From positions 2,680 through 34,679 of the forward strand of contig JBKPJW010000162.1 in the NCBI GenBank assembly GCA_046730875.1: a DNA stretch of 32,000 bases, read 5' to 3'. The DNA is from Actinomycetota bacterium (lineage in GTDB: Bacteria > Actinomycetota > Actinomycetes > Actinomycetales > Micrococcaceae). The notes under the pieces were generated by a model, which was not told the origin of the DNA, ran no database searches, and saw only the letters and a list, made by a program, of their open reading frames with translations. Below are positions 11,089 to 26,134 of this stretch, in pieces. Positions within the stretch are counted from its first letter, which is position 1. Each line of letters begins with the position of its first letter. A program made the translations under genes and the position numbers.

Positions 11089-11118
11089 CCCCTTTCAACA
11101 GTCTCTGAAGGAGAAGTG

Positions 11119-12498: not shown

Positions 12499-12530
12499 CC
12501 CGTGCCCGTAGCCCCCTGCCCGGAGTGAAG

Positions 12531-12770
12531 TCAGCCGGGATGGCCGCTCCGATGAGCTTTGAGCGCGTCGGCTCTGATCCACTTTCTGATCAGGAATGCG
12601 TCCAGAACGAACGAAGCAGCGAGGATAGTCCAGAAAATCGATTCTGGCGCCAGACTGGCAAACACCCACACTCCGGCTGCAACCACGGAGCCAGCGGAGA
12701 CGTAGCCGTACATTCGACGCGCAGAGGTCGCAAATCGTGCCTCCTGCGTCTCGCGAAAGTAGTTCAGCAT
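12531..12770 (-). CDS. hypothetical small membrane protein (79 aa, two predicted TM helices)
   Basis: The ORF MLNYFRETQEARFATSARRMYGYVSAGSVVAAGVWVFASLAPESIFWTILAASFVLDAFLIRKWIRADALKAHRSGHPG has two hydrophobic stretches and a GGGGAGA SD-like sequence upstream. I recognise no family. Confidence 0.45.
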   Translation of the reverse strand: MLNYFRETQEARFATSARRMYGYVSAGSVVAAGVWVFASLAPESIFWTILAASFVLDAFLIRKWIRADALKAHRSGHPG

Positions 12771-12867
12771 TAGTCTCCCCGGGTTCGAATCGGAGCTTAC
12801 CGCACTGGTTCCGCCAACTAACGTTATTAGATAGGCGCCAGAGCCCTGCGATTCAAAACCTCACCGG

Positions 12868-12931
12868 GTGGGGGAGCGTGTGGGGTTTTGGTGCGGTACG
12901 TGGGGGAGGGTTTGGGTTTTTGGTGCGAAAG
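12868..12931. repeat. two tandem ~32-nt G-rich direct repeats
   Basis: GTGGGGGAGCGTGTGGGGTTTTGGTGCG (12868-12895) and GTGGGGGAGGGTTTGGGTTTTTGGTGCG (12900-12927) match at 25/28 positions with a 32-nt period. They lie just downstream of the ABC ATPase stop codon. Confidence 0.65.
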
Positions 12932-12955
12932 GTGAGGGAGCGCTGTGGCCGTCGG

Positions 12956-13717
12956 TCACGCCTCCTGGTCCCGGGCCTCGCCGTAGGGCACGACGACGGT
13001 GCGGCGGGCCGTGCCGCCGTCGGAATAGGGGAGCGTCCTGACGGGAACGCCGTACAGGGCCGTGAGCGCGGGCTCCGTGAGCAGCTGCGCTGCCGGCCCG
13101 GTCAGTGCTCGTCCGCTGCCCAGGAGGACGGCCTGGTCGGCCAGATGCAGGGCATGGTCGGGATGGTGCGTGCTCAGCAGCAGGGCCATCCCGTCTGCCA
13201 TCAACTCGCGCAGGAGCGAGAGGACTCGCACCTGGTTCTTGAGATCGAGACCCGTGGCGGGCTCGTCCAGCACCAGCACAGGGCATCCCGTGGCGATGGC
13301 CCGCGCTATCAGGACCAGCTGTTGCTCGCCGCCGCTCAGGGTGGGGAAGCGGCGGTCCTGCAGGCCTTCGACGCCGACCTTTTCCATTGCCGCCAGGGCC
13401 GCGACCCGGTCCGCGGTTCCCGGTGTCCGGAAGATCCCTATCAGCCGGGCCCTGCCCATCAGGACCATGTCCAGGGCGCTGTATCCGAAAGCGCCGCCGC
13501 CGCGGGCCTGCGGGACATACCCGACGCCGTCTGAGCGGCGGACCGTTCCTTCCGCCGGCTCCAGCAGTCCGGCAGCGCATCGGACCAGCGTGGTCTTGCC
13601 GCTGCCGTTCGGGCCCAGCACCGCGGTGGCCGTCCCCGGATCCACCCGGAAACTGACACCCCGGAAAACCCAGGCCCGCCGGGCGTAGCCGAATCCCACA
13701 CCGTCCAGCTCAAGCAC
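12956..13717 (-). CDS. ABC transporter ATP-binding protein (FecE/BtuD-type)
   Basis: Walker A GPNGSGKTT, signature LSGGEQQ, Walker B LVLDEP. The GTG start at 13717 overlaps the permease stop by 8 nt. Confidence 0.9.
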   Translation of the reverse strand: MLELDGVGFGYARRAWVFRGVSFRVDPGTATAVLGPNGSGKTTLVRCAAGLLEPAEGTVRRSDGVGYVPQARGGGAFGYSALDMVLMGRARLIGIFRTPGTADRVAALAAMEKVGVEGLQDRRFPTLSGGEQQLVLIARAIATGCPVLVLDEPATGLDLKNQVRVLSLLRELMADGMALLLSTHHPDHALHLADQAVLLGSGRALTGPAAQLLTEPALTALYGVPVRTLPYSDGGTARRTVVVPYGEARDQEA

Positions 13718-14903
13718 TTTCCCAGATCCGATCCCGGTTCTGGCGGAGCAGCAGGAAGAACACAGGGGCGCCGATCAAAGCGGTGAGGACACCCAGCGGG
13801 ATCTCCCCGGCGGTTGCGGTGCGGGCAATGGTGTCCACAAGGACAATGTAGGCGCCGCCGAGGAGGAAGGAGACGGGCAGGAGCACCCGATGATCCGGGC
13901 CCACCCACATGCGGGCCAGGTGCGGTATCACCAGGCCCACCCAGCTGACCGCGCCGCTGACGGCCACCGCTCCGGCCACGATCAGGGCCACCGCAATCAG
14001 CACCACCCAGCGCAGGGGACGCGGCGCGACACCCAAGGCCGCGGCGTCCTCGTCGCCCAGGGAGAGCACATTGATGCGCCAGCGCAGCGCCACCAGCACC
14101 GCGGCTCCGCCCAGCACCGGCAGCAGCGCCACGGCGACCTTCGTATAGGTGGCCGTAGCCACGCTGCCCAGCAGCCAGAAGACAATCGCCGGCAGGGTGG
14201 TATTCGGGTCCGCGATGTAGGTGACCAGTGCGACGAGGGCGGAGAAGAACGACCCCGTGACCACCCCGCCGAGAACGATCATCAGCATCGGTGTCCCCCC
14301 GCGGCCGGACGTGATCAGGAGAAGCGTTCCGAGGGCTACCAGGCCGAAGAAGAAGGAACTCGCCACAAGGAGGAAAGGGCCCAGCCCCAGGAGCAGCGCC
14401 AGCGCGCCGCCGAAGGACGCCCCGGCGGAGACGCCGATGATCTCGGGACTGACCAGCGGATTGCGGAAAATCGCCTGCAGAGCAGCGCCGCCGATCGCCA
14501 GCCCGCCGCCGACGAGCACCGCGAGCAGCACCCGCGGCATCCGGACGAGCAAAACTACGTTCTGCTCAGTCTGGCTAGCGTCGAGGGGGAAGGGCACCAC
14601 CTGGGCGGCGAGGATCTGGACAACGTGCAGGGGCGGCACGCTGAACCGGCCCAAGGCCAGCGACAGCACCGAGACGACGATGAGCACACCCGCGGCGGTG
14701 GCAATGGGTCCCAGGACTGCCGGCCCGGCCCTTGGCGGACGACTCGCTGCCGGCCCGCTGTCTCCCGCAACCCTGCCTCCCGGAGCACCGGTAAGATCCC
14801 TTCCAGATAACCGGCCCCGCTGGTGCAGTCCTTGCCGGGAGGGGGTTCCTTCAGCCCGCTTGCTGCGGCCGTTCAGCCGCGCCGAGCTGCCTTCATGCAG
14901 CAT
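13710..14903 (-). CDS. FecCD/BtuC-family ABC transporter permease
   Basis: Polytopic membrane protein with MPRVLLAVLVGGGLAIGGAALQAIFRNPLVSPEIIGVSAGA, typical of iron-chelate/cobalamin-type permeases. The N-terminal ~60 aa are non-conserved-looking, so the true start may lie downstream of 14903. Confidence 0.87.
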   Translation of the reverse strand: MLHEGSSARLNGRSKRAEGTPSRQGLHQRGRLSGRDLTGAPGGRVAGDSGPAASRPPRAGPAVLGPIATAAGVLIVVSVLSLALGRFSVPPLHVVQILAAQVVPFPLDASQTEQNVVLLVRMPRVLLAVLVGGGLAIGGAALQAIFRNPLVSPEIIGVSAGASFGGALALLLGLGPFLLVASSFFFGLVALGTLLLITSGRGGTPMLMIVLGGVVTGSFFSALVALVTYIADPNTTLPAIVFWLLGSVATATYTKVAVALLPVLGGAAVLVALRWRINVLSLGDEDAAALGVAPRPLRWVVLIAVALIVAGAVAVSGAVSWVGLVIPHLARMWVGPDHRVLLPVSFLLGGAYIVLVDTIARTATAGEIPLGVLTALIGAPVFFLLLRQNRDRIWESA

Positions 14904-16047
14904 TGAATTGTTGATAGTTGGCGGACTGGCTGTTGGCCTCGGCCCACAGGATCCGGTTCAGCTCATCCTCGGTAGGCTCGTGGTTGTACAGGAACTGGAA
15001 GTACTCGCGGACCTTGCTGCGCAGCCCGGACCGCTCCTGGGGAAAAGCAATATCGGTGAGCCAGTGCCACATGAGCGGTGATTCCTGGCCCGGAGGATCC
15101 CAGCGGTAGCCGCCGAGCGGAACCTTGTAGACGCGCCGCTCACGGACCGCGGAAACGTTCTGCCACACCGGGTCCGAGTAGATGTCCTGGGGCACGGCCT
15201 GGTCGAAGTTGCCCAGGAGGATCACCTCGGGGTCCCACCGCAGGACCTGCTCCACATCCAGGCCCACCATGCCCGTACCCGGTAGCGGGTCGGGGCCGGT
15301 AGCGGGGTTGGTCCCGCCGATGAGCTTGATGTAGAAGTCGTTGTAGGTGTTGGCTGCCGCGGCCTTGAGTCCGCCCGTGAACCGGTTGAAGTACAGGATG
15401 CTGGGGCCAGCGGAGCCGCGGCCCGCCGCCGCGGCCTTGATGTCGCCGAGTTCCTGGTCGCTGCGGGCCTTGATCTCGGTGGCCCGCTCGGGTTTGCCAA
15501 GCATGGCGGCGAACATCGCCACCCAGGCGTCCACGTCCTCCTGCTTTCCGTTGTTTTTTAGGCCGATGACCGTCAGCCCGGCGTTCTCGAGCGGCTCGAT
15601 CAGTTGGGCGTCGGACCACTGAATCACGACGTCCGGGTTCAGGGCACGCACGCTCTCCACATTGGGGGTGAAATCCTGGGTCGCGATGTCGTGGGGAAGC
15701 TCCAGTGCGCGCGGAAACATCGTTCCCATGATGCCGTCACGCATCGCGACCCAGGAAGCGTTGTGCATCGCGGTCAGATGGTCGGCGCTGCGGTCAACGG
15801 CGACCAGCAGCGAGGCTGACGGCATCGGTATGGTCACGACGGAAGTGACCGGCCGGGCGAAAGTGACGGTCTTGCCCCGCTGATCCGTGATGCTGATGGG
15901 TCCGGCGGCTGCGGAACCTGTCCCGCCGGCGGTGGGCGATGCGGCCGGGGGAGCGGTCGATGCTCCGCATCCGGTGAGGAGGGCTGCGGATCCGCCCGCC
16001 ACGAGGACCTGAAGCACGGTGCGGCGGTTCAGATCGTCGACTCGCAT
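14893..16047 (-). CDS. ABC transporter substrate-binding lipoprotein (periplasmic binding protein type 2, iron-chelate/cobalamin class) with a Tat-type signal
   Basis: MRVDDLNRRTVLQVLVAGGSAALLTGCGAS carries a twin-arginine motif plus the LTGC lipobox. The body resembles class III SBPs. It is the first gene of the SBP-permease-ATPase operon, whose genes overlap each other. Confidence 0.87.
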   Translation of the reverse strand: MRVDDLNRRTVLQVLVAGGSAALLTGCGASTAPPAASPTAGGTGSAAAGPISITDQRGKTVTFARPVTSVVTIPMPSASLLVAVDRSADHLTAMHNASWVAMRDGIMGTMFPRALELPHDIATQDFTPNVESVRALNPDVVIQWSDAQLIEPLENAGLTVIGLKNNGKQEDVDAWVAMFAAMLGKPERATEIKARSDQELGDIKAAAAGRGSAGPSILYFNRFTGGLKAAAANTYNDFYIKLIGGTNPATGPDPLPGTGMVGLDVEQVLRWDPEVILLGNFDQAVPQDIYSDPVWQNVSAVRERRVYKVPLGGYRWDPPGQESPLMWHWLTDIAFPQERSGLRSKVREYFQFLYNHEPTEDELNRILWAEANSQSANYQQFNAA

Positions 16048-16261
16048 GCTTTAACCCCCTGTGCGTAGGTTCTTCACAGCATCCGCCTCGTGGTCAGGGC
16101 TGTCAATCGGCCCTGCCGGGCCAGGCCCGGCCCCGGCCAGAGCGCCGGCCCCGGCGGAGCGCCTGCCCCGTCCAATGCCGTGCCCGCCCAGAGCCCGCCC
16201 CTTGTCGGGGCCTGGGGGCGGTGCTACGTTCAAAGGACCTTGCGCAGAAGGTGGCCAGATC

Positions 16262-17041
16262 ATGCTTCTTGACGGTGCCCAGCTTTTTGTCCGCTATGCC
16301 TACCCGCCCAATTCGAGGGGCAGTTGCGGTCCGCCCGACAGTGATGCTCTGCTGCATTACGGCCAGTCCGGCGTGACGGACCAGGGTCTTCGCCAGCTGG
16401 CCAAAGGCTTCGCCGGGGCGTGGCCTTACCTGGAGCTGATTGCGGCCTCCACCGGCATACGGGATCCCCTCGACTACCGCGTGGTGGAAGCCTACTGGGT
16501 GGGGAACAGCCTCCTGGACTCCGTGGGCATCACCAACATCGGCAACTCCATGGAGGACCGGTTCCGCGCCCGCACGGGACATCAATTCCCGCACCTGGTG
16601 GAAGGCGTCCTTGCCGGCGGGGTTCCGCACCACAGTTTCCACGTTTTCGAGATCTATCCCTGGCTCGGTCTACTCCATGACGACCGGCGCCATGCCACGG
16701 CCTTGAGCGTGCTCGACCGGTGCCGCATCCGCTGGGGCGAGGTGCTGGCGGTTTCCGGCGACGATGCCGTGGTCCGGTCCAGGCCCCTGGTCTGGGACGG
16801 AACCTCGCTGTCCGTGGGTGAACCCGTGGTGGAGTCGGCCAAATATGCGGTGAACGGAGCCGGTTTCGTGGCGGGGCTCGCCGCCGGAGACATCGTCTCG
16901 CTCCACTGGGACTGGGTGTGCGACCGGCTCTCACCGGGTCAGCTGGAGCGCCTAAAGCACTTCACGGCACGGCATCTGCGGATCGCCAACGACGGCGTCG
17001 AGCACCGGGGCGCGGCCATCGCCCTGGAGCGCCAAGGCTGA
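16262..17041 (+). CDS. conserved hypothetical protein, DUF6390-like
   Basis: 259 aa from MLLDGAQLFVRYAYPPNSRGSCGP. Motifs such as EAYWVGN, HHSFHVF and LHWDWVCD match my memory of DUF6390 proteins found near actinobacterial hydrogenase maturation genes. GAAGGTGG SD lies upstream of the ATG at 16262. Confidence 0.7.
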   Translation: MLLDGAQLFVRYAYPPNSRGSCGPPDSDALLHYGQSGVTDQGLRQLAKGFAGAWPYLELIAASTGIRDPLDYRVVEAYWVGNSLLDSVGITNIGNSMEDRFRARTGHQFPHLVEGVLAGGVPHHSFHVFEIYPWLGLLHDDRRHATALSVLDRCRIRWGEVLAVSGDDAVVRSRPLVWDGTSLSVGEPVVESAKYAVNGAGFVAGLAAGDIVSLHWDWVCDRLSPGQLERLKHFTARHLRIANDGVEHRGAAIALERQG

Positions 17042-17198: not shown

Positions 17199-17537
17199 CT
17201 ACGGGGAATGCGGCGCAGCAGAGTCCGTGTCCTCCGGCGGGTTGACTCCCGTGGCGTGCCGCGGCGAGGCTTCGGCCGCCGGGCGGCCGGCAGGGCTGGC
17301 GTTGGCGTCGGTGTCCTCGCGGCCCGGCTCGTGGCCTTCCTGCTTGACCACGTCCTCGCCCCGGCGCGTGGTGCTTTCGCCAACACCTTCAGGGGCCATC
17401 GCTGCGTCGTCGGGAGTCTCGTCGGCTCCCGGCTGCGCGGGTTCCTTCAGCGGCGGTTCGCTTCCGAAAGCGCGTGCCGTCCCGGGGGCGGTTCCTTCCG
17501 CGGCGTCTTTGTCGTTGGACGGATTGGTCGGTGACAT
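17199..17537 (-). CDS. hypothetical acidic, Pro/Ala/Glu-rich (probably disordered) protein, 112 aa
   Basis: Strong GAGGAGGA SD lies 5 nt upstream of the ATG at 17537, third positions are G/C-rich, and the gene sits 45 nt downstream of hypC on the same strand. There are no recognisable motifs. Confidence 0.5.
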   Translation of the reverse strand: MSPTNPSNDKDAAEGTAPGTARAFGSEPPLKEPAQPGADETPDDAAMAPEGVGESTTRRGEDVVKQEGHEPGREDTDANASPAGRPAAEASPRHATGVNPPEDTDSAAPHSP

Positions 17538-17582: not shown

Positions 17583-17840
17583 TCAGCCCTCGTCGGCATC
17601 CGCGTCCCGGGGACGGCCCATCAGTTCCAGCCCGTCCATGGCCCGGTCGGCGCCGTCGGAATCGACCCGTTCCAAGGCGAATCCCATGTGGATGAGTACC
17701 CAGGTGCCGGGCTCCAGCGGGCCTTCGTCCAGCAGGCCGATGTTGATTTTCCGCTGCACGCCCGCCACGTCCACCAGGGCGAGCTGGTTGCCGTACCCCT
17801 CCAGCAGTTCGATGACCTGGCCGGGTATTCCTAGGCACAT
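17583..17840 (-). CDS. hypC: hydrogenase maturation chaperone HypC/HupF family
   Basis: MCLGIPGQVIEL N-terminus with the essential Cys2, 85 aa, starting 4 nt after the endopeptidase stop. Confidence 0.9.
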   Translation of the reverse strand: MCLGIPGQVIELLEGYGNQLALVDVAGVQRKINIGLLDEGPLEPGTWVLIHMGFALERVDSDGADRAMDGLELMGRPRDADADEG

Positions 17841-18427
17841 GATGCCCCCTCCGTGTGGTGTTCCGAGACAAGGCCAACGACGGCGGCAATCGCCTCAGGT
17901 ACGGCCGCCGCCACAGCGTCGCTCAGGCCGATCCCTTCGGTCATGTCAGCAGGCACGCAGCCCACCACATAGGTCACGGGCAGCTCGCCGCCCAGCGAAC
18001 GGAGGCGGCCCAGCACTGCCGCCGGGTCCATGCCGTGCGGGTCCAGGGCGGCGGTGCCGTCCAGGTCCTCCCGGCGCACCCGGAGGACCCTGATGCTGCC
18101 GGGTGCCGCGGTCTTTGAGCCGTCCGGCGGCACCGTGTCCACCAGCACCAGGACGTCCACGCCTGCCACCAGGTCGTAAGCCAGGTGCATGCCGCGGATT
18201 CCGTAGTCCACGGCCAGCAGGCCCGGCAGGTCCGGGTCAGCCGCACCGGCGAGCCGGCGTGCCACCTCCGGGCCGAATCCGTCGTCGCGCAGGAAAATGT
18301 TGCCCACCCCGGCCACCAGGATGCGGGCTCGGTGCCCTGCGGGGTCGTGCCCTTCCGTGCCGGTGGCCGCATTGCCGTTGCCCGCCGTCCCGGTGGCCGC
18401 ATTGCCGGGCTGGAGTCCGTTCGTCAC
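17831..18427 (-). CDS. [NiFe]-hydrogenase maturation endopeptidase (HupD/HyaD/HybD family)
   Basis: ILVAGVGNIFLRDDGFGPEVARRL and LDPHGMDP motifs. I place the start at GTG 18427, which overlaps the stop of the 39-aa ORF (GTGA). The track ORF extends to 18658 through a frame that gives an implausible Cys/Arg-rich N-terminus. Confidence 0.85.
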   Translation of the reverse strand: MTNGLQPGNAATGTAGNGNAATGTEGHDPAGHRARILVAGVGNIFLRDDGFGPEVARRLAGAADPDLPGLLAVDYGIRGMHLAYDLVAGVDVLVLVDTVPPDGSKTAAPGSIRVLRVRREDLDGTAALDPHGMDPAAVLGRLRSLGGELPVTYVVGCVPADMTEGIGLSDAVAAAVPEAIAAVVGLVSEHHTEGASCA

Positions 18428-18543
18428 ATCCGCCGCGCTTTCAGGTAGCGCTGGATGTCCGGGACCGAGCGTATTCCCACATAGACGGCACCGAGCGCCA
18501 GAGCTGCCAGCAGTCCGACTGTGGCCATTCCTACAATCCTCAT
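18424..18543 (-). CDS. 39-aa single-pass membrane micropeptide (not in the ORF track)
   Basis: My own minus-strand translation gives MRIVGMATVGLLAALALGAVYVGIRSVPDIQRYLKARRM. Its ATG overlaps the stop of the upstream 463-aa gene (ATGA, 18540-18543), and its TGA overlaps the endopeptidase GTG (GTGA, 18424-18427). The peptide has a hydrophobic helix and a basic tail. Confidence 0.55.
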   Translation of the reverse strand: MRIVGMATVGLLAALALGAVYVGIRSVPDIQRYLKARRM

Positions 18544-19931
18544 AGCGGGTCGTCCCTTTCATCGTCGAGCGGTTCAAGTTCCTCGGGAGCGTAATAGAAG
18601 GATCTGCCGTAGCCCTCGTGGAGGTCCGCGGCGGGGTCCTGTTCGAGCACGAGCCCAACGTGGGTGCTGCCGTCGACGTCGAAATGCACGCTGGTGACCC
18701 GGCCGGTCTGCCCGGCGAAGAACAGGTCCTGGGCGTCGGCCCGCCGGCTCGGGTTCACCCGGACCCGGCTGCCGCGGGCCACCGGAACACCGTTAATCAG
18801 AACGGCATCCATGTGCGGCTGGACGAGGGCTTCCGATTCCGGCGTCCACCACGGTGCCTCACCGCCGGTGGGGGTCAAACCTTCGGGATCGTTCAGGAAT
18901 TCCTCGGCACGGGGGTTGCGCAGGATTCCGTGCAGCTGCTGGAGCTCCTCCGGTGACATGGCTTCGCACTGGTCGATGATCGCGGCCGCGCGGGGATCGG
19001 TGGCGCGGGCCTCGGCTTTTTCCTCATCGGTCAGTGTCAGCACCCGTAGGGTGAGGATCTCGTCTATCTCCGTTGAGTCGTACAGGGCCACGGAACTTTC
19101 CGGCGCGACGGCCGGGTGGTCGTAGAGGATGATCGGGGACACCAGGAGCACGTCCGTCTGCCCCTCGGGACCGGCCAGCACGGGCCAGCAGCGATGCTGT
19201 GTGCAGGCAGCAGCCGCGTCCTTGGCCCAGCCGGGCGGATCCAGAAGCGACAGGAAATCCGCGTCCCGCAGGTCCAGGAGCACGTGCGCGCCGATGAAGG
19301 ACGCGGCGATCGCGTCTTGCCGGTTCCCGGGATCCTCGGCCGGCTCTGCGGTGTTGGTGACGGAAACCCGGAGCCGGATAAGCCCGTCGCCGGCGGCGGC
19401 GCTGAGGCCGACTTCGCCGTGCAGCGCGCGACGGCGGCGCACCAGCCGCCCGGCCAGCCGGCCGGCGTCGTCGCGGAGTTCCTCCACGTCCTCACCCGCG
19501 GGGATGTCCACCGGCAGCACGAGCGGTCCGTCGCCGGGCCGAAGCTGCCCCACCGGAACCGGGCCCAGCGCGATTTCCCGCTCCACTGCCTCGTCCCAGC
19601 TCAGCCAGCGGGAGGCGCCGACGGCGAGTTCGGCCACCGGACTGAAGTTGCCGGCGTCGTCCGCTTCTTCCGCGGTACGGCTCTGCAACTGCAGGAAACG
19701 CAGGTGGACTTCCACCTCCGCCTGCGCTCCGGGGCTCAGCAGGCAGTCGGCGAACATTCCCGGTTCCTCCCCGGCGCCGGCTTGGGCGGCTCCGGGCGGC
19801 CCCAGGATGCCAAACTGCCAGCGCGACTGGTTCTTTTGCGAGGAGGCGCGGTAGGGATACAGCAGGTAGCCCTCGTAGAGGACCGCGTCCGCGACTGCCC
19901 GGGCCAGGCTCAGGCTCATATTCATGGTCAT
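18540..19931 (-). CDS. conserved hypothetical protein of hydrogenase clusters (463 aa)
   Basis: The frame starts MTMNMSLSLARAVADAVLYEGYLLYPYRASS at ATG 19931, overlapping the upstream stop (ATGA, 19928-19931). The track ORF's extra 71 N-terminal codons overlap the previous gene. No cofactor motif is visible. Confidence 0.8.
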   Translation of the reverse strand: MTMNMSLSLARAVADAVLYEGYLLYPYRASSQKNQSRWQFGILGPPGAAQAGAGEEPGMFADCLLSPGAQAEVEVHLRFLQLQSRTAEEADDAGNFSPVAELAVGASRWLSWDEAVEREIALGPVPVGQLRPGDGPLVLPVDIPAGEDVEELRDDAGRLAGRLVRRRRALHGEVGLSAAAGDGLIRLRVSVTNTAEPAEDPGNRQDAIAASFIGAHVLLDLRDADFLSLLDPPGWAKDAAAACTQHRCWPVLAGPEGQTDVLLVSPIILYDHPAVAPESSVALYDSTEIDEILTLRVLTLTDEEKAEARATDPRAAAIIDQCEAMSPEELQQLHGILRNPRAEEFLNDPEGLTPTGGEAPWWTPESEALVQPHMDAVLINGVPVARGSRVRVNPSRRADAQDLFFAGQTGRVTSVHFDVDGSTHVGLVLEQDPAADLHEGYGRSFYYAPEELEPLDDERDDPL

Positions 19932-20584
19932 GGGAGCCGCTCTCCGCCCACGCCCGAGGCGTCGGCAGCCAGCAGGGTCTCGACGGTGGCCTCCCATGAG
20001 GTCAGGCCGCGCGCCGACTTGTACCGGGACAGGGCGGCCAGCACGTCCCGGTCCAACCGGATCCAGCCCGCATTGGGAAAGTACTGGTCCATCAGCCGGT
20101 GCCAGGCCGCCACGGGGAGCCGGTAGGACGCTTCGAGGTCCCACGGCACTTGTTCCACCCCGAATCCCGTCTGGCCTTTGGTAAAGACGGTGCCGGAGAA
20201 CAACAGTTCAAGCGGGATCTCCCCGTCCCGGAGGGCGTTCAGGTACTTGGCCGCGGCGACGTCGAAGTCGAAGGTGCACGGCAGGGCCAGGTCCGCCTCG
20301 GTGCTGCCCGTGAAACCCTGCACCATGGTGCTGCATTGCAGCCACAGGAAGGACTTGAGCGTGCTGGGCCACCGGCCGCGCTCGCCGAAGAGGTCCAGGA
20401 GCCCGCCTTCCTCCTCGTCCGCATACCCGCGGCGTTGCGGCAGGATCCGCACCTGGCAGCGCAGCGCGATAGCGTGGACGGCGGCTCCGGTGGCCTCGGT
20501 GATCCGGAGCCGGGCGGTCAGCTGCGGGGCAGCGGCGTAGGGCTCAGGCTGGATGTCGACGACGGCGAACGCCAGCTCGGTCAT
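19928..20584 (-). CDS. conserved hypothetical protein, DUF6084-like (218 aa)
   Basis: MTELAFAVVDIQPEPYAAAPQLTARLRI... The ATG at 20584 overlaps the upstream stop (ATGA, 20581-20584). The position and sequence style match the conserved unknowns of actinobacterial hhy loci as I recall them. Confidence 0.78.
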   Translation of the reverse strand: MTELAFAVVDIQPEPYAAAPQLTARLRITEATGAAVHAIALRCQVRILPQRRGYADEEEGGLLDLFGERGRWPSTLKSFLWLQCSTMVQGFTGSTEADLALPCTFDFDVAAAKYLNALRDGEIPLELLFSGTVFTKGQTGFGVEQVPWDLEASYRLPVAAWHRLMDQYFPNAGWIRLDRDVLAALSRYKSARGLTSWEATVETLLAADASGVGGERLP

Positions 20585-21345
20585 CGCGGGCCTCCCGGCA
20601 TGGACTCATGCCCGTCCGCCGGCGCGGGCTTGTCGGCCGGTGCAAGCTTTTCCTCGGGCGCATGCTTGTCCTCCAACACCGGCCGGCTGCGGCTGCCGAG
20701 CCGCGCGAAGAAGGCCGCGAGCTGCTCACGGGCCTCCTGACCGCCGTCGAACCCGCGCCAGAGCCGGCGCAGCTGGCCCACCAGTTCGTAGCAGGCGTCC
20801 ACGGGGACGAGGTGGCAGTCGGCGCGGGCACGCTCCGGTCCGGGACCACGGATCAGGAGCGCTTCCGTGTCCGGGGCCGCCATGGCCAGCGCCGGGTTCC
20901 GGGCCATCACCGCGCCCCACGCGCCCAGCGGAAGCTCCGATTCGGTGGCACCGGCCGGCCCGGGATAGAAGGCCACCGTCCGGTCGAGTTTGGAGCTGCG
21001 GAAGAAGAAGGCCAGGCCCACCGGGATTTCCAGCTCGTCCCACTGACCGGGACCGAGTTCGAAATCGGGGAAGGACAGGTACCGGTCCGGCACTGAACGG
21101 TAGCGCAGATGGGCGCTGGCGTCGGTGAAGAGGAGATAGCACGGCCGGCATGTGCACATCATGGCGTGGGATTCCAGGTCGACGACGTGCTGGTGCTCCT
21201 CCGGGATCGGTTCCCCGCACATTTCGCAGCGCTCGCCGGCGGGCGCCGCAGGCGGATTGGTGGCGATCCTGCGCAACAGTGCCACCGGCAACCCGCCGGG
21301 GGCAGCCCGGGTGCGGCCGGTCTCGGTGCTGCGTCCGGCGCTCAC
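20581..21345 (-). CDS. conserved hypothetical protein with a Cys-rich N-terminal motif, DUF5947-like (254 aa)
   Basis: The GTG start at 21345 lies 1 nt after the upstream stop. It contains CEMCGEPIPEEHQHVVDLESHAMMCTCRPCYLLF (CxxC...CxCxxC). Confidence 0.78.
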   Translation of the reverse strand: MSAGRSTETGRTRAAPGGLPVALLRRIATNPPAAPAGERCEMCGEPIPEEHQHVVDLESHAMMCTCRPCYLLFTDASAHLRYRSVPDRYLSFPDFELGPGQWDELEIPVGLAFFFRSSKLDRTVAFYPGPAGATESELPLGAWGAVMARNPALAMAAPDTEALLIRGPGPERARADCHLVPVDACYELVGQLRRLWRGFDGGQEAREQLAAFFARLGSRSRPVLEDKHAPEEKLAPADKPAPADGHESMPGGPR

Positions 21346-21346
21346 G

Positions 21347-22336
21347 TCAGGCGTCCTGGCCCGAAACCGCCGGCACGGCCACGGACATCACGCCGGACCT
21401 GACCAGGAGCGGTAACGGATCCAGGTGCAGGTTCCGGTCCTCGAGACAGCTTCCGGCCTGCCGCACGTCGAAATGGGCGCGGCATGAGGGGCAGCGCAGC
21501 AGGCCGCCGCCCGCCGGTGCGGCCAGCGCGCGCTGGAGTGTGGCACCGGCCATCGACGCCGTGCAGCGCGGGCAATAGTCGCGGTAGGCATAGACGTCCT
21601 GGCCGGTCCGGCAGGCGAGCACCGGATAGCCGCCCACCAGGAAGCCGGCAACGTCGCCGGGCTCCAGTCCGGCAATTTCCGGCACAGGCTCCCAGGACCC
21701 GCCGGGGTGCTCCTGCCAGGCCCCGGCGCCGCCCGGTCCGCGGTTCGGCGCACTGTCAGCGGTGCCGACGCCGGTGCCGACGCGCTGCTGGTCCAGACGA
21801 ACCAGAAGCGCGTCCACCGGGATTACGGCAGGAATGCCGGGACGCGATTCCTCCTCGACCACTTCGATGCCCGTAACCTCAGGTGCGGCCGACTCGATCG
21901 CCTCCTCGACGGCGAACTTGAGCGTGACCGACGACGACGGGCAGCCCTGGCAGGTGCCGAGCAGCTTCAGCCGAACCACGCCCTCCGGGCTGATGTCCAG
22001 GAGGTCCACGTTGCCGCCGTGCGAGCCCAGATACGGCCGGACACTGTCCAGCGCGGCAGCCACGCGTGTTTCCAGATCCTGCGGGTGCAGCCCGTGGATG
22101 ACCAGAAGGCTGGACACCAGCTCATCGGAGGTCAGCGCGTCCAGCGTGCCGTCGTCCAACTGTCCGCGGTCAGAGAGGATTTCCAGGATCCGGGCCAGCC
22201 CGGCACCGTACAGCTCCGTTACCTGGCGGACCAGTTCCTCAGCGCGGCCGCGGGCCACCGCCCCACCGGCGCCCAGGGCGTCGAGGAGACTCTCGATCCG
22301 GTCACCGGCCGGCCGCGGCCGGTCCTCGCCAGGCAT
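21347..22336 (-). CDS. hhyE: putative iron-sulfur protein: NifU-like domain plus Rieske-fold-like Cys4 domain (HhyE/HucE type)
   Basis: VRPYLGSHGGNVDLLDISPEGVVRLKLLGTCQGCPSSSVTLKFAVEEAI is a NifU C-terminal domain with CxxC. The C-terminal half has YRDYCPRCTASM and LLRCPSCRAHFD (CxxC...CxxC). The gene starts 6 nt after the hhyL stop. Confidence 0.8.
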   Translation of the reverse strand: MPGEDRPRPAGDRIESLLDALGAGGAVARGRAEELVRQVTELYGAGLARILEILSDRGQLDDGTLDALTSDELVSSLLVIHGLHPQDLETRVAAALDSVRPYLGSHGGNVDLLDISPEGVVRLKLLGTCQGCPSSSVTLKFAVEEAIESAAPEVTGIEVVEEESRPGIPAVIPVDALLVRLDQQRVGTGVGTADSAPNRGPGGAGAWQEHPGGSWEPVPEIAGLEPGDVAGFLVGGYPVLACRTGQDVYAYRDYCPRCTASMAGATLQRALAAPAGGGLLRCPSCRAHFDVRQAGSCLEDRNLHLDPLPLLVRSGVMSVAVPAVSGQDA

Positions 22337-22342
22337 GGCTTG

Positions 22343-24136
22343 TTACTCGCCGGTCAGACTCTGGGTGGGGGAGTGCAGCTTGTCCAGGGTCTGGCCGTTG
22401 CCCAGATACATGTGGACGCCACAGGGCAGGCAGGGGTCGAAGCTGCGGACGGTGCGCATGATGTCGATGCCCTTGAAGTGCTCGCGATCGTTTTCTTCGA
22501 AGATCGGCTGTCCCTGGACTGCGTCCTCGTAGGGGCCGGAAACCCCGGCCGAGTCCGTCGGGCTGGCATTCCAGGGGGTCGGCGGATACGGATGGTAGTT
22601 GGCGATCTTCCCGTCGCGGATCACCATGTGGTGCGACAGGACACCCCGCACGGCTTCGGTGAAGCCGCAGCTGATGGCTTCGTCCGGCACCTCGAAGGTC
22701 TCCCAGGTCTTGGTGCGGCCGGCACGGATCTCCTCGAGCGCCTTCTCCGCGAAGTGCAGCGCCGCGGCCGCGGCGTAGGCCTGGAAGTAAGTGCGCGCCC
22801 GGTTGCGTTCGATCGTGTTGCTCCACTGCGGGATGTTCCACTCCAAGGACACGGGACCCTTCAGCGCGGTCTTGGGCAGGTTGATCTGGACACTCCGGCC
22901 GGTGGACTTGATGTAGCCGATGTCCACCAGCCCGGCCAGTGCCGTTGCCCAGAGGCGCGCCAGCGGGCCGCCGCCGGTGTCCAGTGCCAGGTTGTCCTGG
23001 CCGTCGAACCAGCGCGGCGACATGACCCAGCTGTACTTGTCCGCGAGGTCCCGCTTCTGAGGCCGCGGATTGGTGTGCTGGTTCCAGGGATGCCGGCGGT
23101 CCACGGGATTGCCCAGCGGATCGTGGGTCACGAACATCTCCTGGCCTTCCCAGTCCTCGTAGTAGGAGGAGCCGAGCATGATCCGGATGCCCAGGTTGAT
23201 CCGCACCAGGTCCGTCGTGATGAGTTTTCCGTCCACCACCACGCCGGGGGTGACGAACATCTTCCGGCCCCACTCGGTCATGTCCTTGTACTCGAAGTTG
23301 CAGTGGTCCGGGTCCTGGAGCGAGCCCCAGCAGCCTAGCAGCGTGCGCCGCAGCCCCACCTGCTCGTAGCCGGGCAGGGCCTCATAGAAGAAGTCGAAGA
23401 GGTCGTCATGCATGGGGACAACCTTTTTCATGAACTCCACGTAGCGCATGAGCCTGGTGACGTAGTCCGTCATCAGCTGGATGGTGGCAACGGTGCCCAC
23501 ACCGCCGGGGTAGAGCGTGGACGGGTGGACGTGGCGTCCTTCCATGAGGCAGAACATTTCGCGGGTGGCCCGGCTGACCTGCAGGGCTTCGCGGTAGAAC
23601 TCGCCCGTGAACGGGTTGAGCGAGCGCATGATGTCCGCGATGGTCCGGTAGCCGTGGTCGGCCTCATGCGGGGCGCGGGTGTTTTCAGCCTTGGCCAGCA
23701 CTCCGGGGTTGGTTTCGGAGACCATCTTTTCGCAGTAGTCCACGCCGACGAGGTTTTCCTGGAAGATGTTGTGGTCGAACATGTACTCGGCAGCTTCACC
23801 CAGGTTCACGATCCACTCGCCCAGGTTCGGTGGCTTCACGCCGTACGCCATGTTTTGCGCGTAGCAGGAGCAGGTGGCGTGGTTGTCGCCGCAGATGCCG
23901 CAGATCCGGCTGGTGATGAAGTGGGCGTCGCGCGGGTCCTTGCCCTTCATGAAAATGGAGTAGCCGCGGAAGATCGAGGAGGTGCTCTTGCACTCCACTA
24001 CCTGGTTGTTTGCGAAATCGATCTTGGTGTAGATGCCGAGGCTGCCGACGATCCTGGTGATGGGGTCCCACGCCATCTCCACCAGGTTGCTGTCGCCTGT
24101 TCCGCTTCCGGACGGCATTGGAATCGTTGAGGTCAT
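22343..24136 (-). CDS. hhyL: [NiFe]-hydrogenase large subunit, group 1h (Hhy/actinobacterial type)
   Basis: 597 aa from MTSTIPMPSG (ATG 24136). L1 motif TSRICGICGDNH; L2 motif SFDPCLPCGVH, followed by a cleavable tail MYLGNGQTLDKLHSPTQSLTGE. Confidence 0.95.
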   Translation of the reverse strand: MTSTIPMPSGSGTGDSNLVEMAWDPITRIVGSLGIYTKIDFANNQVVECKSTSSIFRGYSIFMKGKDPRDAHFITSRICGICGDNHATCSCYAQNMAYGVKPPNLGEWIVNLGEAAEYMFDHNIFQENLVGVDYCEKMVSETNPGVLAKAENTRAPHEADHGYRTIADIMRSLNPFTGEFYREALQVSRATREMFCLMEGRHVHPSTLYPGGVGTVATIQLMTDYVTRLMRYVEFMKKVVPMHDDLFDFFYEALPGYEQVGLRRTLLGCWGSLQDPDHCNFEYKDMTEWGRKMFVTPGVVVDGKLITTDLVRINLGIRIMLGSSYYEDWEGQEMFVTHDPLGNPVDRRHPWNQHTNPRPQKRDLADKYSWVMSPRWFDGQDNLALDTGGGPLARLWATALAGLVDIGYIKSTGRSVQINLPKTALKGPVSLEWNIPQWSNTIERNRARTYFQAYAAAAALHFAEKALEEIRAGRTKTWETFEVPDEAISCGFTEAVRGVLSHHMVIRDGKIANYHPYPPTPWNASPTDSAGVSGPYEDAVQGQPIFEENDREHFKGIDIMRTVRSFDPCLPCGVHMYLGNGQTLDKLHSPTQSLTGE

Positions 24137-24161
24137 GTGCTTCACCTGTCTGGACGTGGGG

Positions 24162-25220
24162 CTACCAGGTGCGCCGCGCACCGGTGAGAAGCTGAGTGCC
24201 GGGCCGGCGCCACTTGGGCTCCTGGTCCAGGGTGTGGGTGGTGATTCCACGCAGCGCCCTGATGGCCGAACCGTACGGGCGGATGGTGTTCGTTGAAAGC
24301 TTGCCGCCGGGAGGCTCATCCATAAAGGGCATGAACTTGTCCGGGAATCCCGGCATCGTGCAGCCGATGCAGATGCCGCCGACGTTCGGGCAGCCGCCGA
24401 TGCCGTTCATCCAGCCCCGTTTGGGCACGTTGCATTTGACCACGGGACCCCAGCATCCGAGTTTGACGATGCACTTGGGGGATCCGTACTCGGTGGCGAA
24501 GTCGCCCTGTTCGTAGTATCCGGCCCGGTCGCAGCCCTCATGGACGGTCTTGCCGAAGAGCCAGGTGGGCCGCAGCGCGTCGTCGAGCGGAATCATCGGG
24601 GCCTGGCCGGTGGCCTGGTAGAGCAGGTAGGTCATCGTCTCGGAGAGGTTGTCCGGCTGGATGGGGCACCCGGGGACGCAGACAATAGGGATCCCGGCCT
24701 TGGATTTCCAGTCATAGCCGAGGTAGTCCGGCACTCCCATGGCCCCGGTGGGGTTTCCTGCCATCGCGTGGATGCCGCCGTAGGTGGCGCAGGTCCCGGC
24801 GGCGATGATGGCGGTGGCCTTGGGGGCCAGGCGGTCCAGCCATTCGCTGGTGGTGATCGGCTGGCCGGTCTCCAGGTCGTTGCCGAACCCGCACCAGTAG
24901 CCGCCCGGGGCGTGCAGTTTTTCGTTAGGGATGGATCCCTCCACCACCAGGACAAACGGTTCAAGTTCGCCGCGGTCCGCCTTGCGGAACCACTCCAGGA
25001 AGTCATCGGCCCCTTCCTGCGGGCCGCACTCGAAGTCGATCAGCGGCCAATGCATGGCAATGCGCGGCAGGCCGGGCAGGGCGCCGAGGGCTATTTCCTC
25101 GACACTGGGCTGGGTGGCCGCGGTCAGGGCCACAGAATCGCCGTCGCAGCTGAGCCCTGCGTTGATCCACAGCACGTGAATGAGGGTTTCTTCGGCCTTC
25201 AGAGAAGTTTCAGTAGGCAT
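24162..25220 (-). CDS. hhyS: [NiFe]-hydrogenase small subunit, group 1h, no Tat signal peptide
   Basis: 352 aa, MPTETSLKAEETLIHVLWINAGLSCDGDSVA, with multiple Cys ligand motifs (CVPGCP, CIGCTMPGFPD). No RRxFxK signal. AAGAGG SD. Confidence 0.95.
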   Translation of the reverse strand: MPTETSLKAEETLIHVLWINAGLSCDGDSVALTAATQPSVEEIALGALPGLPRIAMHWPLIDFECGPQEGADDFLEWFRKADRGELEPFVLVVEGSIPNEKLHAPGGYWCGFGNDLETGQPITTSEWLDRLAPKATAIIAAGTCATYGGIHAMAGNPTGAMGVPDYLGYDWKSKAGIPIVCVPGCPIQPDNLSETMTYLLYQATGQAPMIPLDDALRPTWLFGKTVHEGCDRAGYYEQGDFATEYGSPKCIVKLGCWGPVVKCNVPKRGWMNGIGGCPNVGGICIGCTMPGFPDKFMPFMDEPPGGKLSTNTIRPYGSAIRALRGITTHTLDQEPKWRRPGTQLLTGARRTW

Positions 25221-26132: not shown

Positions 26133-26134
26133 TC

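What the first reader, a model, noticed from the sequence alone, without database searches (positions are those of the whole stretch)
18424..18543. Unannotated 39-aa membrane micropeptide wedged between a conserved unknown and the hydrogenase endopeptidase
Seen: the minus-strand ORF MRIVGMATVGLLAALALGAVYVGIRSVPDIQRYLKARRM has one hydrophobic helix and a basic amphipathic tail. Its ATG shares ATGA with the stop of the 463-aa gene, and its TGA shares GTGA with the best start of the endopeptidase. The alternative reading (the 275-aa track ORF) gives the protease an implausible Cys/Arg-rich N-terminus. Inference: group 1h hydrogenases lack a cytochrome b or other obvious membrane anchor, so a co-translated single-pass peptide could tether or organise the enzyme or its maturation at the membrane. 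I have a vague memory of similar small actinobacterial proteins ending in ...PDxxRYLKxRxM, but I cannot verify family membership here.
Basis: partly seen in the sequence, partly recalled or inferred. Interest (0 to 1): 0.62.

Follow-up and report, generated by a model that had tools for sequence, protein, structure and literature searches.

The report
Hydrogenase-cluster membrane micro-protein (DUF6893)
The 39-codon frame is a real, conserved gene for a one-helix membrane peptide of the catalogued but untested family DUF6893, which sits beside the maturation protease in most gene clusters for the hydrogenase that burns atmospheric hydrogen, so it is a testable candidate for how that enzyme is held at the membrane.

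Summary
The ORF at 18424-18543 (-) is exactly as described, including the ATGA overlap with the 463-aa gene and the GTGA overlap with the protease start. It is coding. It scores 47 bits against Pfam PF21833 (DUF6893; cut-off 24.6). Among six same-genus loci, synonymous changes are enriched only in its frame.

NCBI already names 92%-identical Pseudarthrobacter/Arthrobacter proteins "DUF6893 family small protein", so it is missing only from this window's track. No paper in the searched library mentions the family. Other agents of this scan reached the same reading on other genomes.

- **Conservation:** every copy I collected is a hydrophobic helix followed by (P)(D/E)(I/L)xRY(L)(K/R)xRxM-stop. 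R, Y and the C-terminal Met are invariant.
- **Linkage:** in a 401-genome Actinomycetota sample, all 30 copies whose surroundings were examined lie beside a HupD-type protease. Of 78 loci from seven phyla, 56 lie beside HupD and 12 have no hydrogenase gene nearby.
- **Other hosts:** a copy lies after the protease gene on Cupriavidus necator H16 pHG1.
- **Absences:** at least eight hhy loci lack the peptide.

Function is inferred. The most likely role is a membrane-anchored accessory peptide whose cytoplasmic basic tail docks Hhy or its maturation machinery. The family is known; the hydrogenase linkage is unpublished; interest is moderate.

The parts
18424..18543 (-). DUF6893 micro-protein gene (39 codons plus TGA stop)
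   Evidence: Read from the sequence. Pfam PF21833 scores 47 bits against a cut-off of 24.6. The coding signal is confined to this frame. NCBI names 92%-identical proteins 'DUF6893 family small protein'.
18472..18537 (-). Hydrophobic helix (residues 3-24, IVGMATVGLLAALALGAVYVGI), predicted membrane-spanning
   Evidence: This is a 22-residue uncharged stretch with mean Kyte-Doolittle hydropathy 2.2. AlphaFold2 models a helix over residues 2-25 at pLDDT 94.5. Across the family the hydrophobicity is conserved but the sequence is not.
18427..18462 (-). Conserved basic tail PDIQRYLKARRM ending in the C-terminal Met
   Evidence: R32, Y33 and M39 are invariant in 28 copies found by HMM across the phylum. 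AlphaFold2 models a second helix over residues 27-38 after a break. The C-side flank carries net charge +4 against +1 for the N-terminus.
18553..18560 (-). Shine-Dalgarno-like GAAAGGGA, 9 nt upstream of the ATG, inside the 3' end of the 463-aa gene
   Evidence: Seen. All six same-genus loci have a purine-rich GGAAAGG-type sequence at this position.
18540..19931 (-). 463-aa conserved unknown (homologue of C. necator H16_RS31865, the gene after the DUF6084 gene); its stop overlaps the peptide's start (ATGA)
   Evidence: No Pfam or NCBIfam family matches. Homologues lie next to the peptide or HupD in nearly all loci examined. The AlphaFold2 model has pLDDT 82, and no convincing fold match was found.
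17831..18427 (-). HupD/HybD-type hydrogenase maturation endopeptidase; GTG start overlaps the peptide's stop (GTGA)
   Evidence: TIGR00072 matches at 104.8 bits and Pfam HycI also matches. The match begins at about residue 34-37. The start was assigned from the sequence and from relatives.
19928..25220 (-). Upstream genes of the operon: hhyS 24162-25220, hhyL 22343-24139, NifU/Rieske hhyE 21347-22336, DUF5947 20581-21345, DUF6084 19928-20584
   Evidence: Pfam matches. The closest solved structure to the large subunit is 5AA5, HofG of C. necator.

Best explanation
Shown:
- The ORF encodes a translated 39-residue micro-protein of family DUF6893.
- It is a conserved, translationally coupled component of group 1h (Hhy/Hof) [NiFe]-hydrogenase gene clusters and almost always neighbours the HupD-type maturation protease gene.

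Inferred from shape:
- It consists of an N-terminal hydrophobic helix that spans the cytoplasmic membrane, a Pro-Asp break, and a 12-residue basic amphipathic helix (PDIxRYLKxRxM-COOH).
- By the positive-inside rule the tail faces the cytoplasm. That is where the signal-less Hhy enzyme and its maturation proteins reside.

Inferred mechanism, untested:
- The tail, with its invariant Arg-Tyr pair and C-terminal Met, docks a cytoplasmic partner. The partner would be either the Hhy enzyme or the precursor/HupD maturation complex.
- The peptide would thereby hold that partner at the inner face of the membrane. There, electrons must reach menaquinone.
- In this way it would supply the membrane element that no larger protein of the operon provides.
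For: **Identity and coding**
- Pfam match.
- Close relatives are named by NCBI.
- At least 3470 clusters at 90% identity and 2262 representatives at 50% identity. Nearly all of the 150 best-scoring representatives listed are 32-40 aa and match up to their last residue.
- Frame-specific synonymous excess.

**Linkage**
- Within the genus, the peptide is found in exactly the 5 of 24 genomes that have the hhy marker DUF6084.
- In a 401-genome phylum sample, 32 of 45 DUF6084-positive genomes have a Pfam-level hit, and 2 more have divergent copies.
- All 30 copies whose surroundings were examined in that sample lie beside HupD, and nearly all also beside the 463-aa homologue.
- Of 78 copies from seven phyla, 56 lie within 350 nt of HupD on the same strand, and 10 more share their locus with other hydrogenase or hyp genes.
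- Copies lie after HupD in C. necator H16 pHG1 and in Methylocystis parvus.

**Shape**
- A 22-residue uncharged helix, with a tail of net charge +4 against +1 for the N-terminus.
- AlphaFold2 gives helix-break-helix at pLDDT 94.5.
- Only the tail is conserved in sequence, and R, Y and the terminal Met are invariant. That pattern fits a binding motif attached to a generic anchor.

**Need for such a part**
- HhyS here starts MPTETSLKAEETLIHVLWINAG, with no twin-arginine signal visible by eye.
- The literature states that Hhy is membrane-bound but that no cytochrome b or equivalent is encoded in its operon (PMC6883350).
- Sister groups 1l and 1m carry small single-helix proteins in their clusters (PMC9561532).
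- In M. smegmatis a 'hypothetical protein', MSMEG_2714, lies between MSMEG_2715 and the M52 peptidase MSMEG_2713, and it is co-induced with hhy genes (PMC5445863). Its sequence was not checked.
Against: - There is no direct evidence of any interaction, localisation or phenotype.
- No natural fusion to a partner exists. The longer hits are frameshift or read-through artefacts.
- No solved structure contains the peptide.
- At least eight actinobacterial hhy loci have HupD followed directly by HypA with no peptide, so it is dispensable in some lineages.
- 12 of 78 sampled copies lie in unrelated contexts: glpF-glpK, kynureninase, Sir2/ABC1, DUF302, PilZ/TonB and YceI.
- The strongest linkage is to the protease and hyp genes rather than to hhyS/hhyL. 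Two genomes keep the peptide with HupD but have no detectable large subunit.
- C. necator carries a copy. From memory, unchecked here, its enzyme was purified as a soluble protein.
- In many family members both flanks are positively charged and the hydrophobic stretch is only 14-18 residues, so topology is uncertain.
Confidence: 0.4

Rival explanations
1. The peptide is specific to maturation. It works with the HupD endopeptidase, and perhaps the Hyp proteins, for example by placing large-subunit processing at the membrane or by modulating the protease. It is not part of the finished enzyme.
For: - Adjacency to HupD is the most constant feature: 56 of 78 loci, on either side of HupD.
- One genome has the peptide on both sides of HupD.
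- G379 has HupD-peptide-HypF...HypD-HypE-SIS-HypA-HypB with no large subunit detectable in the genome.
- G268 keeps the peptide and HupD in a locus whose structural genes are deleted.
- Other copies sit after HypE or HypB.
- In the window the peptide is translationally coupled to HupD through the GTGA overlap.
Against: - From my own knowledge (not checked here), characterised HybD/HyaD/HycI-type proteases are soluble proteins that act alone, with no known membrane or peptide partner.
- In some genomes the peptide sits directly before hhyS or directly after hhyL (L126 and L140).
- Loci without the peptide still have HupD.
Confidence: 0.25
2. It is a generic membrane micro-protein with no hydrogenase-specific role. 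It might modulate a membrane complex, lipid or quinone handling under starvation. On this view it is merely co-regulated with hhy genes in many lineages.
For: - 12 of 78 copies lie outside hydrogenase loci, in varied contexts. Two independent cases follow glpF-glpK, and others lie next to ABC1/UbiB-like and YceI-like genes.
- G355 and G419 carry extra copies away from HupD.
Against: - In Actinomycetota presence tracks the hhy marker gene almost perfectly.
- Immediate adjacency and start/stop overlaps persist across seven phyla.
- The non-hydrogenase contexts share no common theme.
Confidence: 0.15
3. It is a cis-acting coupling or leader ORF. Translating it matters, for example to deliver ribosomes to the HupD start or to stall at the conserved C-terminal motif, but the peptide itself has no function.
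For: - 4-nt overlaps at both ends in the window.
- The conserved motif ends exactly at the stop codon. In form, this recalls arrest peptides that act at termination.
Against: - The downstream gene varies (HupD, HypA, HypB, HypC, HypF or none), with gaps often over 100 nt.
- Conservation is at the amino-acid level, with heavy synonymous change and all three stop codons in use.
- A conserved hydrophobic helix is not expected of a leader peptide.
- Stand-alone copies exist.
Confidence: 0.04
4. It is not a gene. The protease starts upstream (the 275-aa ORF, TTG 18658 or ATG about 18562) and the 39-codon frame is a chance open frame in high-GC DNA.
For: The 275-aa frame is open.
Against: - The synonymous fraction in that frame is 0.08, against 0.42 in the peptide frame.
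- The protease family match starts at residue 34-37 of the short form.
- Where HupD precedes the peptide, its homology to the window's HupD begins only at about residue 30-35, the conserved core.
- The DUF6893 match has E 2.6e-12.
Confidence: 0.01

Closest known systems
Pfam PF21833 (DUF6893); NCBI 'DUF6893 family small protein'
   Same: The window peptide scores 47 bits against a cut-off of 24.6. It has the same length class (32-40 aa), the same helix plus PDIxRYLKxRxM tail, and 92% identity to named Pseudarthrobacter proteins.
   Different: Nothing differs; it is a member. The family has no assigned function, and no paper in the searched library mentions it.
HylTM1-5 of group 1l clusters, and the two 82-92-aa single-helix proteins of group 1m clusters
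   Same: These are also small predicted membrane proteins encoded inside clusters of high-affinity, signal-less [NiFe]-hydrogenases related to group 1h (PMC9561532). Their function is likewise untested.
   Different: They are longer, and in group 1l they lie between the large and small subunit genes. Homology to DUF6893 was not tested because I held no sequences for them. That paper describes no such protein for group 1h.
HucM, the membrane-associated stalk of the group 2a atmospheric hydrogenase Huc (PMC10017518; paper found but not read, so the description is from my own knowledge)
   Same: It answers the same problem: linking a cytoplasmic, signal-less H2-scavenging hydrogenase to the membrane and to menaquinone.
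   Different: HucM is a much larger scaffold protein. No similarity was detected, since the peptide's only Pfam match is DUF6893. A single 39-residue helix cannot by itself form a quinone conduit.
Cytochrome b subunits and C-terminal anchor helices of small subunits in classical group 1 membrane-bound hydrogenases
   Same: They serve as the membrane anchor of an uptake hydrogenase.
   Different: Those enzymes are exported by the Tat pathway and anchored on the outer face. The anchor helix is part of the small subunit, and the cytochrome b carries haem. None of this applies here (PMC6883350).
Anchoring or modulating bacterial micro-proteins such as Prli42 (stressosome tether), CydX, AcrZ and KdpF (from my own knowledge; not tested here)
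   Same: They are 30-50-residue single-helix peptides that bind and position or stabilise a larger complex.
   Different: There is no sequence relationship, and the partner here is unknown.

Membership tests
Pfam PF21833 DUF6893 | Score at or above the curated gathering threshold | tested here: met
   47.0 bits against 24.6, E 2.6e-12, covering profile positions 2-32 of 32. The whole-genome scan gave 44.8 bits.
Pfam PF21833 DUF6893 | Stand-alone small protein of about 32-40 residues whose match runs to the last residue | tested here: met
   The peptide is 39 aa and the match ends at residue 39. Nearly all of the 150 best-scoring listed representatives (of 2262 at E <= 0.001) are 32-40 aa and end-matched.
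Pfam PF21833 DUF6893 | One hydrophobic helix followed by (P)(D/E)(I/L)xRY(L)(K/R)xRxM-COOH, with invariant R, Y and terminal M | tested here: met
   The window peptide ends PDIQRYLKARRM. The invariant columns were found in 28 HMM-derived copies, and AlphaFold2 gives helix-break-helix.
Group 1h (Hhy/Hof) hydrogenase accessory gene set | Encoded inside a cluster with hhyS, hhyL, NifU/Rieske, DUF5947, DUF6084, the about 460-aa unknown gene and HupD | tested here: met
   The same neighbours recur in relatives.
Group 1h (Hhy/Hof) hydrogenase accessory gene set | Presence tracks presence of the hydrogenase across genomes | tested here: met
   In the genus, the same 5 of 24 genomes carry the peptide and the marker. 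In the phylum sample, 34 of 45 marker-positive genomes have the peptide. Three marker-negative genomes had hits over the cut-off: two are decayed or partial loci, and one is a false hit inside a 795-aa protein. The peptide is not universal, since 8 loci lack it.
Hydrogenase membrane anchor or subunit (cytochrome b, HucM or similar) | Sequence homology to a known anchor | tested here: not met
   The only Pfam match is DUF6893, there is no NCBIfam match, and no PDB chain matches.
Hydrogenase membrane anchor or subunit (cytochrome b, HucM or similar) | Physical association with the enzyme and with the membrane | not testable with these tools
   This needs fractionation, co-purification or a structure of the native complex. 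The only solved group 1h structure, 5AA5, matched here through its large-subunit chain HofG; no PDB chain matches the peptide.
Regulatory leader or arrest peptide | A fixed downstream gene whose translation it controls | tested here: not met
   The downstream gene is HupD, HypA, HypB, HypC, HypF or none, and the spacing varies.
Twin-arginine (Tat) signal peptide | An S/T-R-R-x-F-L-K motif on the N-terminal side of the hydrophobic region | tested here: not met
   The RRYLK-like string lies on the C-terminal side of the helix, lacks the spacer residue, and its first R is variable (R/K/Q/A/V).

The most novel reading that the evidence does not exclude
DUF6893 is the missing membrane element of group 1h atmospheric-H2 hydrogenases. 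It would be a true small subunit whose cytoplasmic RY...M-COOH tail binds Hhy, or the HhyE/accessory proteins, and positions the enzyme on the membrane for electron delivery to menaquinone. On this reading, loss of the peptide would uncouple H2 oxidation from respiration without abolishing catalysis.
Probability: 0.25. Interest if true: 0.75.

Novelty: new member of a known kind. Interest (0 to 1): 0.45.

Why it matters
Group 1h hydrogenases carry much of the biological sink for atmospheric H2. How they attach to the membrane and pass electrons to the quinone pool is still unresolved: the M. smegmatis literature states that no cytochrome b or equivalent is encoded in the hhy operon (PMC6883350).

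A conserved one-helix peptide sits in most hhy clusters. The hosts include a Mycobacterium plasmid, several Mycolicibacterium species, Streptomyces and the pHG1 megaplasmid of C. necator H16. No paper in the searched library discusses it. It gives a concrete and inexpensive genetic target for that question.

If it proves to act only in maturation, it would be the first membrane-linked step described for [NiFe] large-subunit processing. For annotation, it fixes the protease start and adds a gene that falls below common ORF-length cut-offs.

Tried and rejected
- **Related loci by alignment:** I replaced it with a degenerate DNA pattern scan. The first pattern had too few fixed bases.
- **Natural fusions:** I searched 1.84 billion representatives for fusions that would name a partner. 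The longer hits are artefacts: P0205 is a HupD fragment plus out-of-frame text plus the peptide; P0269 is the C-terminal domain of the 463-aa protein plus out-of-frame text plus the peptide; P0186 is a read-through of two tandem copies; P0147 is an unrelated repeat protein. No usable fusion was found.
- **Solved structures:** none contains the peptide.
- **Fold of the 463-aa neighbour:** the model has pLDDT 82, but the fold search gave no convincing global match. Only the C-terminal barrel resembles SH3-like domains (PetP, nitrile hydratase beta) at weak scores. It gives no functional clue.
- **Tat-signal resemblance (RRYLK):** rejected because the position and spacing are wrong.
- **Arrest or leader peptide:** rejected as the main reading because the downstream gene varies.
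- **Membrane-bound versus soluble enzymes:** C. necator carries a copy and so do several mycobacteria, so comparing membrane-bound with soluble Hhy enzymes, as I recall them, has no discriminating power.
- **M. smegmatis gene:** I tried to confirm that MSMEG_2714 is the peptide. Only its position and co-induction could be read. The last homology search listed other Mycolicibacterium species but not M. smegmatis.
- **PHG071:** this name, used for the C. necator copy in earlier scan notes, occurs in no paper of the library.
- **Complex prediction:** the structure tool predicts single proteins only, so no complex could be modelled.
Full report
**Observation**

The minus strand between 18543 and 18424 reads ATG AGG ATT ... 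CGG CGG ATG TGA and encodes MRIVGMATVGLLAALALGAVYVGIRSVPDIQRYLKARRM. The ATG (18543-18541) overlaps the TGA of the upstream 463-aa gene (18542-18540). A GTG at 18427-18425 overlaps the peptide's last codon and stop, and it opens the frame of the hydrogenase maturation protease. A GAAAGGGA lies 9 nt upstream of the ATG.

**Surroundings**

All of these genes are on the minus strand:
- hypA (26135-26464) and hypB (25242-26210)
- hhyS (24162-25220), which starts MPTETSLKAEETLIHVLWINAG; I see no twin-arginine signal in it by eye
- hhyL (22343-24139), 1067 bits to 5AA5 HofG
- a NifU/Rieske protein (21347-22336)
- DUF5947 (20581-21345) and DUF6084 (19928-20584)
- the 463-aa unknown gene (18540-19931)
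- the peptide
- HupD (17831-18427), matching TIGR00072 at 105 bits from residue 37
- a 112-aa acidic, Pro-rich protein (17199-17537)

A NiCoT nickel transporter gene (26521-27732, +) and a DUF6390 gene (16061-17041, +) flank the cluster. This is a group 1h (Hhy) locus.

**Is it a gene?**

The peptide matches Pfam PF21833 (DUF6893) at 47 bits against a cut-off of 24.6, E 2.6e-12. It is the only convincing copy in the 4.4-Mb, 682-contig genome.

A search of 5.8 billion proteins returned 33 close relatives, nearly all 39 aa. They include 92%-identical proteins that NCBI names 'DUF6893 family small protein' in Pseudarthrobacter and Arthrobacter.

I compared six same-genus loci codon by codon:

| Frame | Synonymous | Non-synonymous | Synonymous fraction |
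|---|---|---|---|
| Peptide frame | 151 | 211 | 0.42 |
| Sense +1 | 38 | 329 | 0.10 |
| Sense +2 (protease extension) | 30 | 335 | 0.08 |
| Antisense frames | | | 0.06-0.29 |

In the peptide frame, third positions carry 261 differences against 150 and 124 at the first and second positions.

In two of the six loci HupD starts with a GTG 9 nt after the peptide's stop, directly before VLVAGVGN. Where HupD precedes the peptide, its homology to the window's HupD begins only at about residue 30-35, the conserved core. The 275-aa reading of the protease is therefore wrong, and GTG 18427 is the only available start. No Rfam family matches the region.

**Anatomy of the family**

I collected 34 copies by HMM across the phylum. 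Every one ends ...(P/S/D)(D/E)(I/L/V)x-R-Y-(L/M/I/F)(K/R)x(R/K)x-M followed directly by a stop, which may be TGA, TAG or TAA.
- In a 28-sequence alignment R32, Y33 and M39 are invariant.
- The preceding hydrophobic stretch is conserved only in character: median 18 uncharged residues, range 14-25, mean hydropathy 2.3.
- For the window peptide the stretch is 22 residues. The N-flank carries +1 and the C-flank +4, which by the positive-inside rule predicts N-out, C-in. This is an inference.
- In many relatives both flanks are basic, so topology is less certain family-wide.
- AlphaFold2 with a 51-sequence alignment gives a helix over residues 2-25, a break, then a helix over 27-38, with mean pLDDT 94.5.

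The terminal Met cannot be a by-product of the overlapping HupD start. It is kept where the peptide lies downstream of HupD, and it is kept with all three stop codons.

**Size of the family**

A profile search found at least 3470 clusters at 90% identity with E <= 0.001. Named members occur in Streptomyces, Kitasatospora, Microbispora, Mycolicibacterium and Arthrobacter.

A full HMMER scan of 1.84 billion representatives found 2262 at E <= 0.001. Nearly all of the 150 best-scoring ones listed are 32-40 aa and match up to their last residue. The few long hits are frameshift or read-through artefacts, not fusions.

**Linkage to the hydrogenase**

Within the genus, the peptide occurs in 5 of 24 genomes. 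These are exactly the five that have the hhy marker DUF6084.

In an even sample of 401 Actinomycetota genomes:
- 35 had a hit over the Pfam cut-off, and 45 had DUF6084.
- 32 had both.
- My own HMM found divergent copies directly after HupD in two more, G221 and G436.
- Eight have HupD followed directly by HypA, with no peptide in the 7 kb examined and no Pfam hit in the genome. Their 463-aa homologues are only 27-32% identical to the window's.
- Three loci were cut by contig ends or incomplete.

Three hits came from marker-negative genomes:
- One is false; it lies inside a 795-aa membrane protein.
- G268 is a decayed locus: NiCoT, HypA, HypB, HhyS fragments, peptide, HupD.
- G379 has HupD, peptide, HypF..., HypD, HypE, SIS, HypA, HypB. 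Neither G268 nor G379 has a detectable large subunit in the genome.

All 30 phylum-sample copies whose surroundings were examined lie beside HupD, and nearly all also beside the 463-aa homologue. Two gene orders exist:
- 463-aa gene, peptide, HupD. This is the window's order, also seen in Mycobacteriales and Micromonosporales.
- 463-aa gene, HupD, peptide, then hypA, hypB, hypC or hypF. This order is commoner.

One genome has a copy in both positions. Several Acidimicrobiia and Acidobacteriota have two tandem paralogues after HupD.

**Beyond Actinomycetota**

I scanned one genome per species with a degenerate DNA pattern for the tail. They come from Actinomycetota, Acidobacteriota, Dormibacterota, Chloroflexota, Planctomycetota, Gemmatimonadota and Pseudomonadota.
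- 56 lie within 350 nt of HupD on the same strand (48 after it, 8 before).
- 10 share the locus with other hydrogenase or hyp genes.
- 12 have none in the 8-kb locus.

The 12 orphan contexts are heterogeneous: glpF-glpK-peptide twice, kynureninase twice, Sir2/ABC1, DUF302, PilZ/TonB and YceI.

In annotated plasmids, copies lie:
- after the protease gene of the C. necator H16 pHG1 AH cluster (MKGFLKYLVLPALVVALLANIKDIRRYIRIRSM; absent from the PLSDB gene table);
- after HupD in Methylocystis parvus pMpar-2;
- between the 463-aa gene and HupD on a Mycobacterium intracellulare plasmid.

**What is known**

No paper in the library mentions DUF6893 or PHG071.

The M. smegmatis literature states that Hhy is membrane-bound and that no cytochrome b or equivalent is encoded in its operon (PMC6883350).

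Small single-helix proteins have been noted in clusters of the sister groups 1l (HylTM1-5) and 1m, but not in group 1h (PMC9561532).

In M. smegmatis a 'hypothetical protein', MSMEG_2714, lies between MSMEG_2715 and the M52 peptidase MSMEG_2713. It rises with the other hhy genes in a microarray table (PMC5445863). By position it should be the peptide, but I could not check its sequence.

No solved structure contains the peptide. The only group 1h structure the search found is 5AA5.

**Interpretation**

Shown: this is a real, purifying-selected micro-protein of a catalogued family. In most lineages it is welded into the group 1h hydrogenase cluster next to the maturation protease.

Inferred: it is a membrane helix with a cytoplasmic basic tail that acts as a docking motif.

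The mechanism I consider most likely is tethering of Hhy, or of its precursor/HupD assembly intermediate, to the inner face of the membrane. I put that at about 0.4. A purely maturation-linked role comes next (0.25), because linkage is tightest to HupD and hyp genes and survives loss of the structural genes. A generic membrane role (0.15) is kept alive by the orphan copies. Cis-regulatory and non-coding readings are essentially excluded.

**The 463-aa neighbour**

I examined this protein for clues.
- It is a two-domain protein: an N-terminal beta-sandwich plus helices, and a C-terminal barrel of about 90 residues.
- It is split into two ORFs in Acidobacteriota.
- It has an invariant N-terminal LYEGYxLYPYR motif.
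- The AlphaFold2 model has pLDDT 82.
- The fold search gave no convincing global match and only weak SH3-like hits for the C-terminal domain.

It gives no functional handle.

**Limits**

Complexes could not be predicted. Genome samples are draws of related genomes, so the counts are descriptive and are not statistical tests.

Earlier notes of this scan show that other agents reached the same DUF6893 reading on other genomes, including the orphan copy after glpK. I treated those notes as leads only.

**Verdict**

- The family is known and its function is unknown; the hydrogenase linkage is solid but unpublished.
- Interest is moderate (0.45).
- The peptide is a good, inexpensive experimental target in M. 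smegmatis or C. necator.

Noticed in passing
window 18325-18427 (-): The HupD N-terminus carries a low-complexity extension of about 33 residues with a near-perfect direct repeat (GNAATGT twice, GGCAATGCGGCCACCGG...). The extension is absent or different in relatives, and two same-genus loci start HupD directly before VLVAGVGN.
   Followed up: partly
window 18540-19931 (-); L069, L073, L138, L072, L079, L108: The 463-aa unknown protein has two domains. In Acidobacteriota it is split into an N-terminal ORF of about 310-360 aa and a separate C-terminal piece; in Pyrinomonadaceae the two lie in the same frame, separated by stops. It has an invariant N-terminal motif LYEGYxLYPYR. The AlphaFold2 model has pLDDT 82 and no convincing PDB fold match. 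The C-terminal barrel weakly resembles PetP and nitrile hydratase beta.
   Followed up: partly
window 17199-17537 (-): A 112-aa acidic, Pro/Ala-rich, low-complexity ORF lies directly downstream of HupD. It is conserved at 75-77% identity in same-genus hhy loci and has no family match.
   Followed up: no
window 16061-17041 (+); L057, L064, L086, L110, L123: A DUF6390 gene lies next to the hhy cluster here. Homologues recur near hhy loci in several other genomes, which suggests another linked unknown.
   Followed up: no
L051 (G268) and L052 (G379): Two complete or nearly complete actinobacterial genomes keep the peptide and HupD (plus hyp genes) but have no detectable Hhy large subunit. In G268 only two HhyS fragments remain between hypB and the peptide, which looks like a deletion scar.
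   Followed up: partly
L053, L066, L071, L064, L073, L114, L138: Some loci carry two DUF6893 paralogues, either flanking HupD or in tandem after it. One is a short MxRRF-type and the other a 39-aa MxxLG-type like the window's. Acidobacteriota also have a variant of about 60 aa, with the same tail joined to the helix by a longer linker.
   Followed up: no
L109 and L139 (Acidobacteriaceae); L087 and L131 (Terriglobia): Orphan DUF6893 copies lie outside hydrogenase loci. Two follow glpF-glpK directly, and two sit beside a kynureninase gene.
   Followed up: partly
L059 about 8999-9097 (C. necator H16 pHG1, NC_005241 about 66753-66851): A DUF6893 copy lies between the protease gene H16_RS31870 and hypF in the model organism's AH cluster. 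It is not listed in the PLSDB gene table, and earlier scan notes call it PHG071.
   Followed up: partly
window 19928-19931, 20581-20584, 18540-18543, 18424-18427: The genes from DUF5947 to HupD form a chain of 4-nt start/stop overlaps (ATGA or GTGA). This implies translational coupling across five genes.
   Followed up: no
window 11116-16047 and 26521-27732: The genes flanking the cluster are a glutamate-decarboxylase-like PLP enzyme (11116-12498, +), a FecCD/periplasmic-binding-protein/ABC ATPase transporter (12956-16047, -) and a NicO/NiCoT nickel transporter that diverges from hypA.
   Followed up: no
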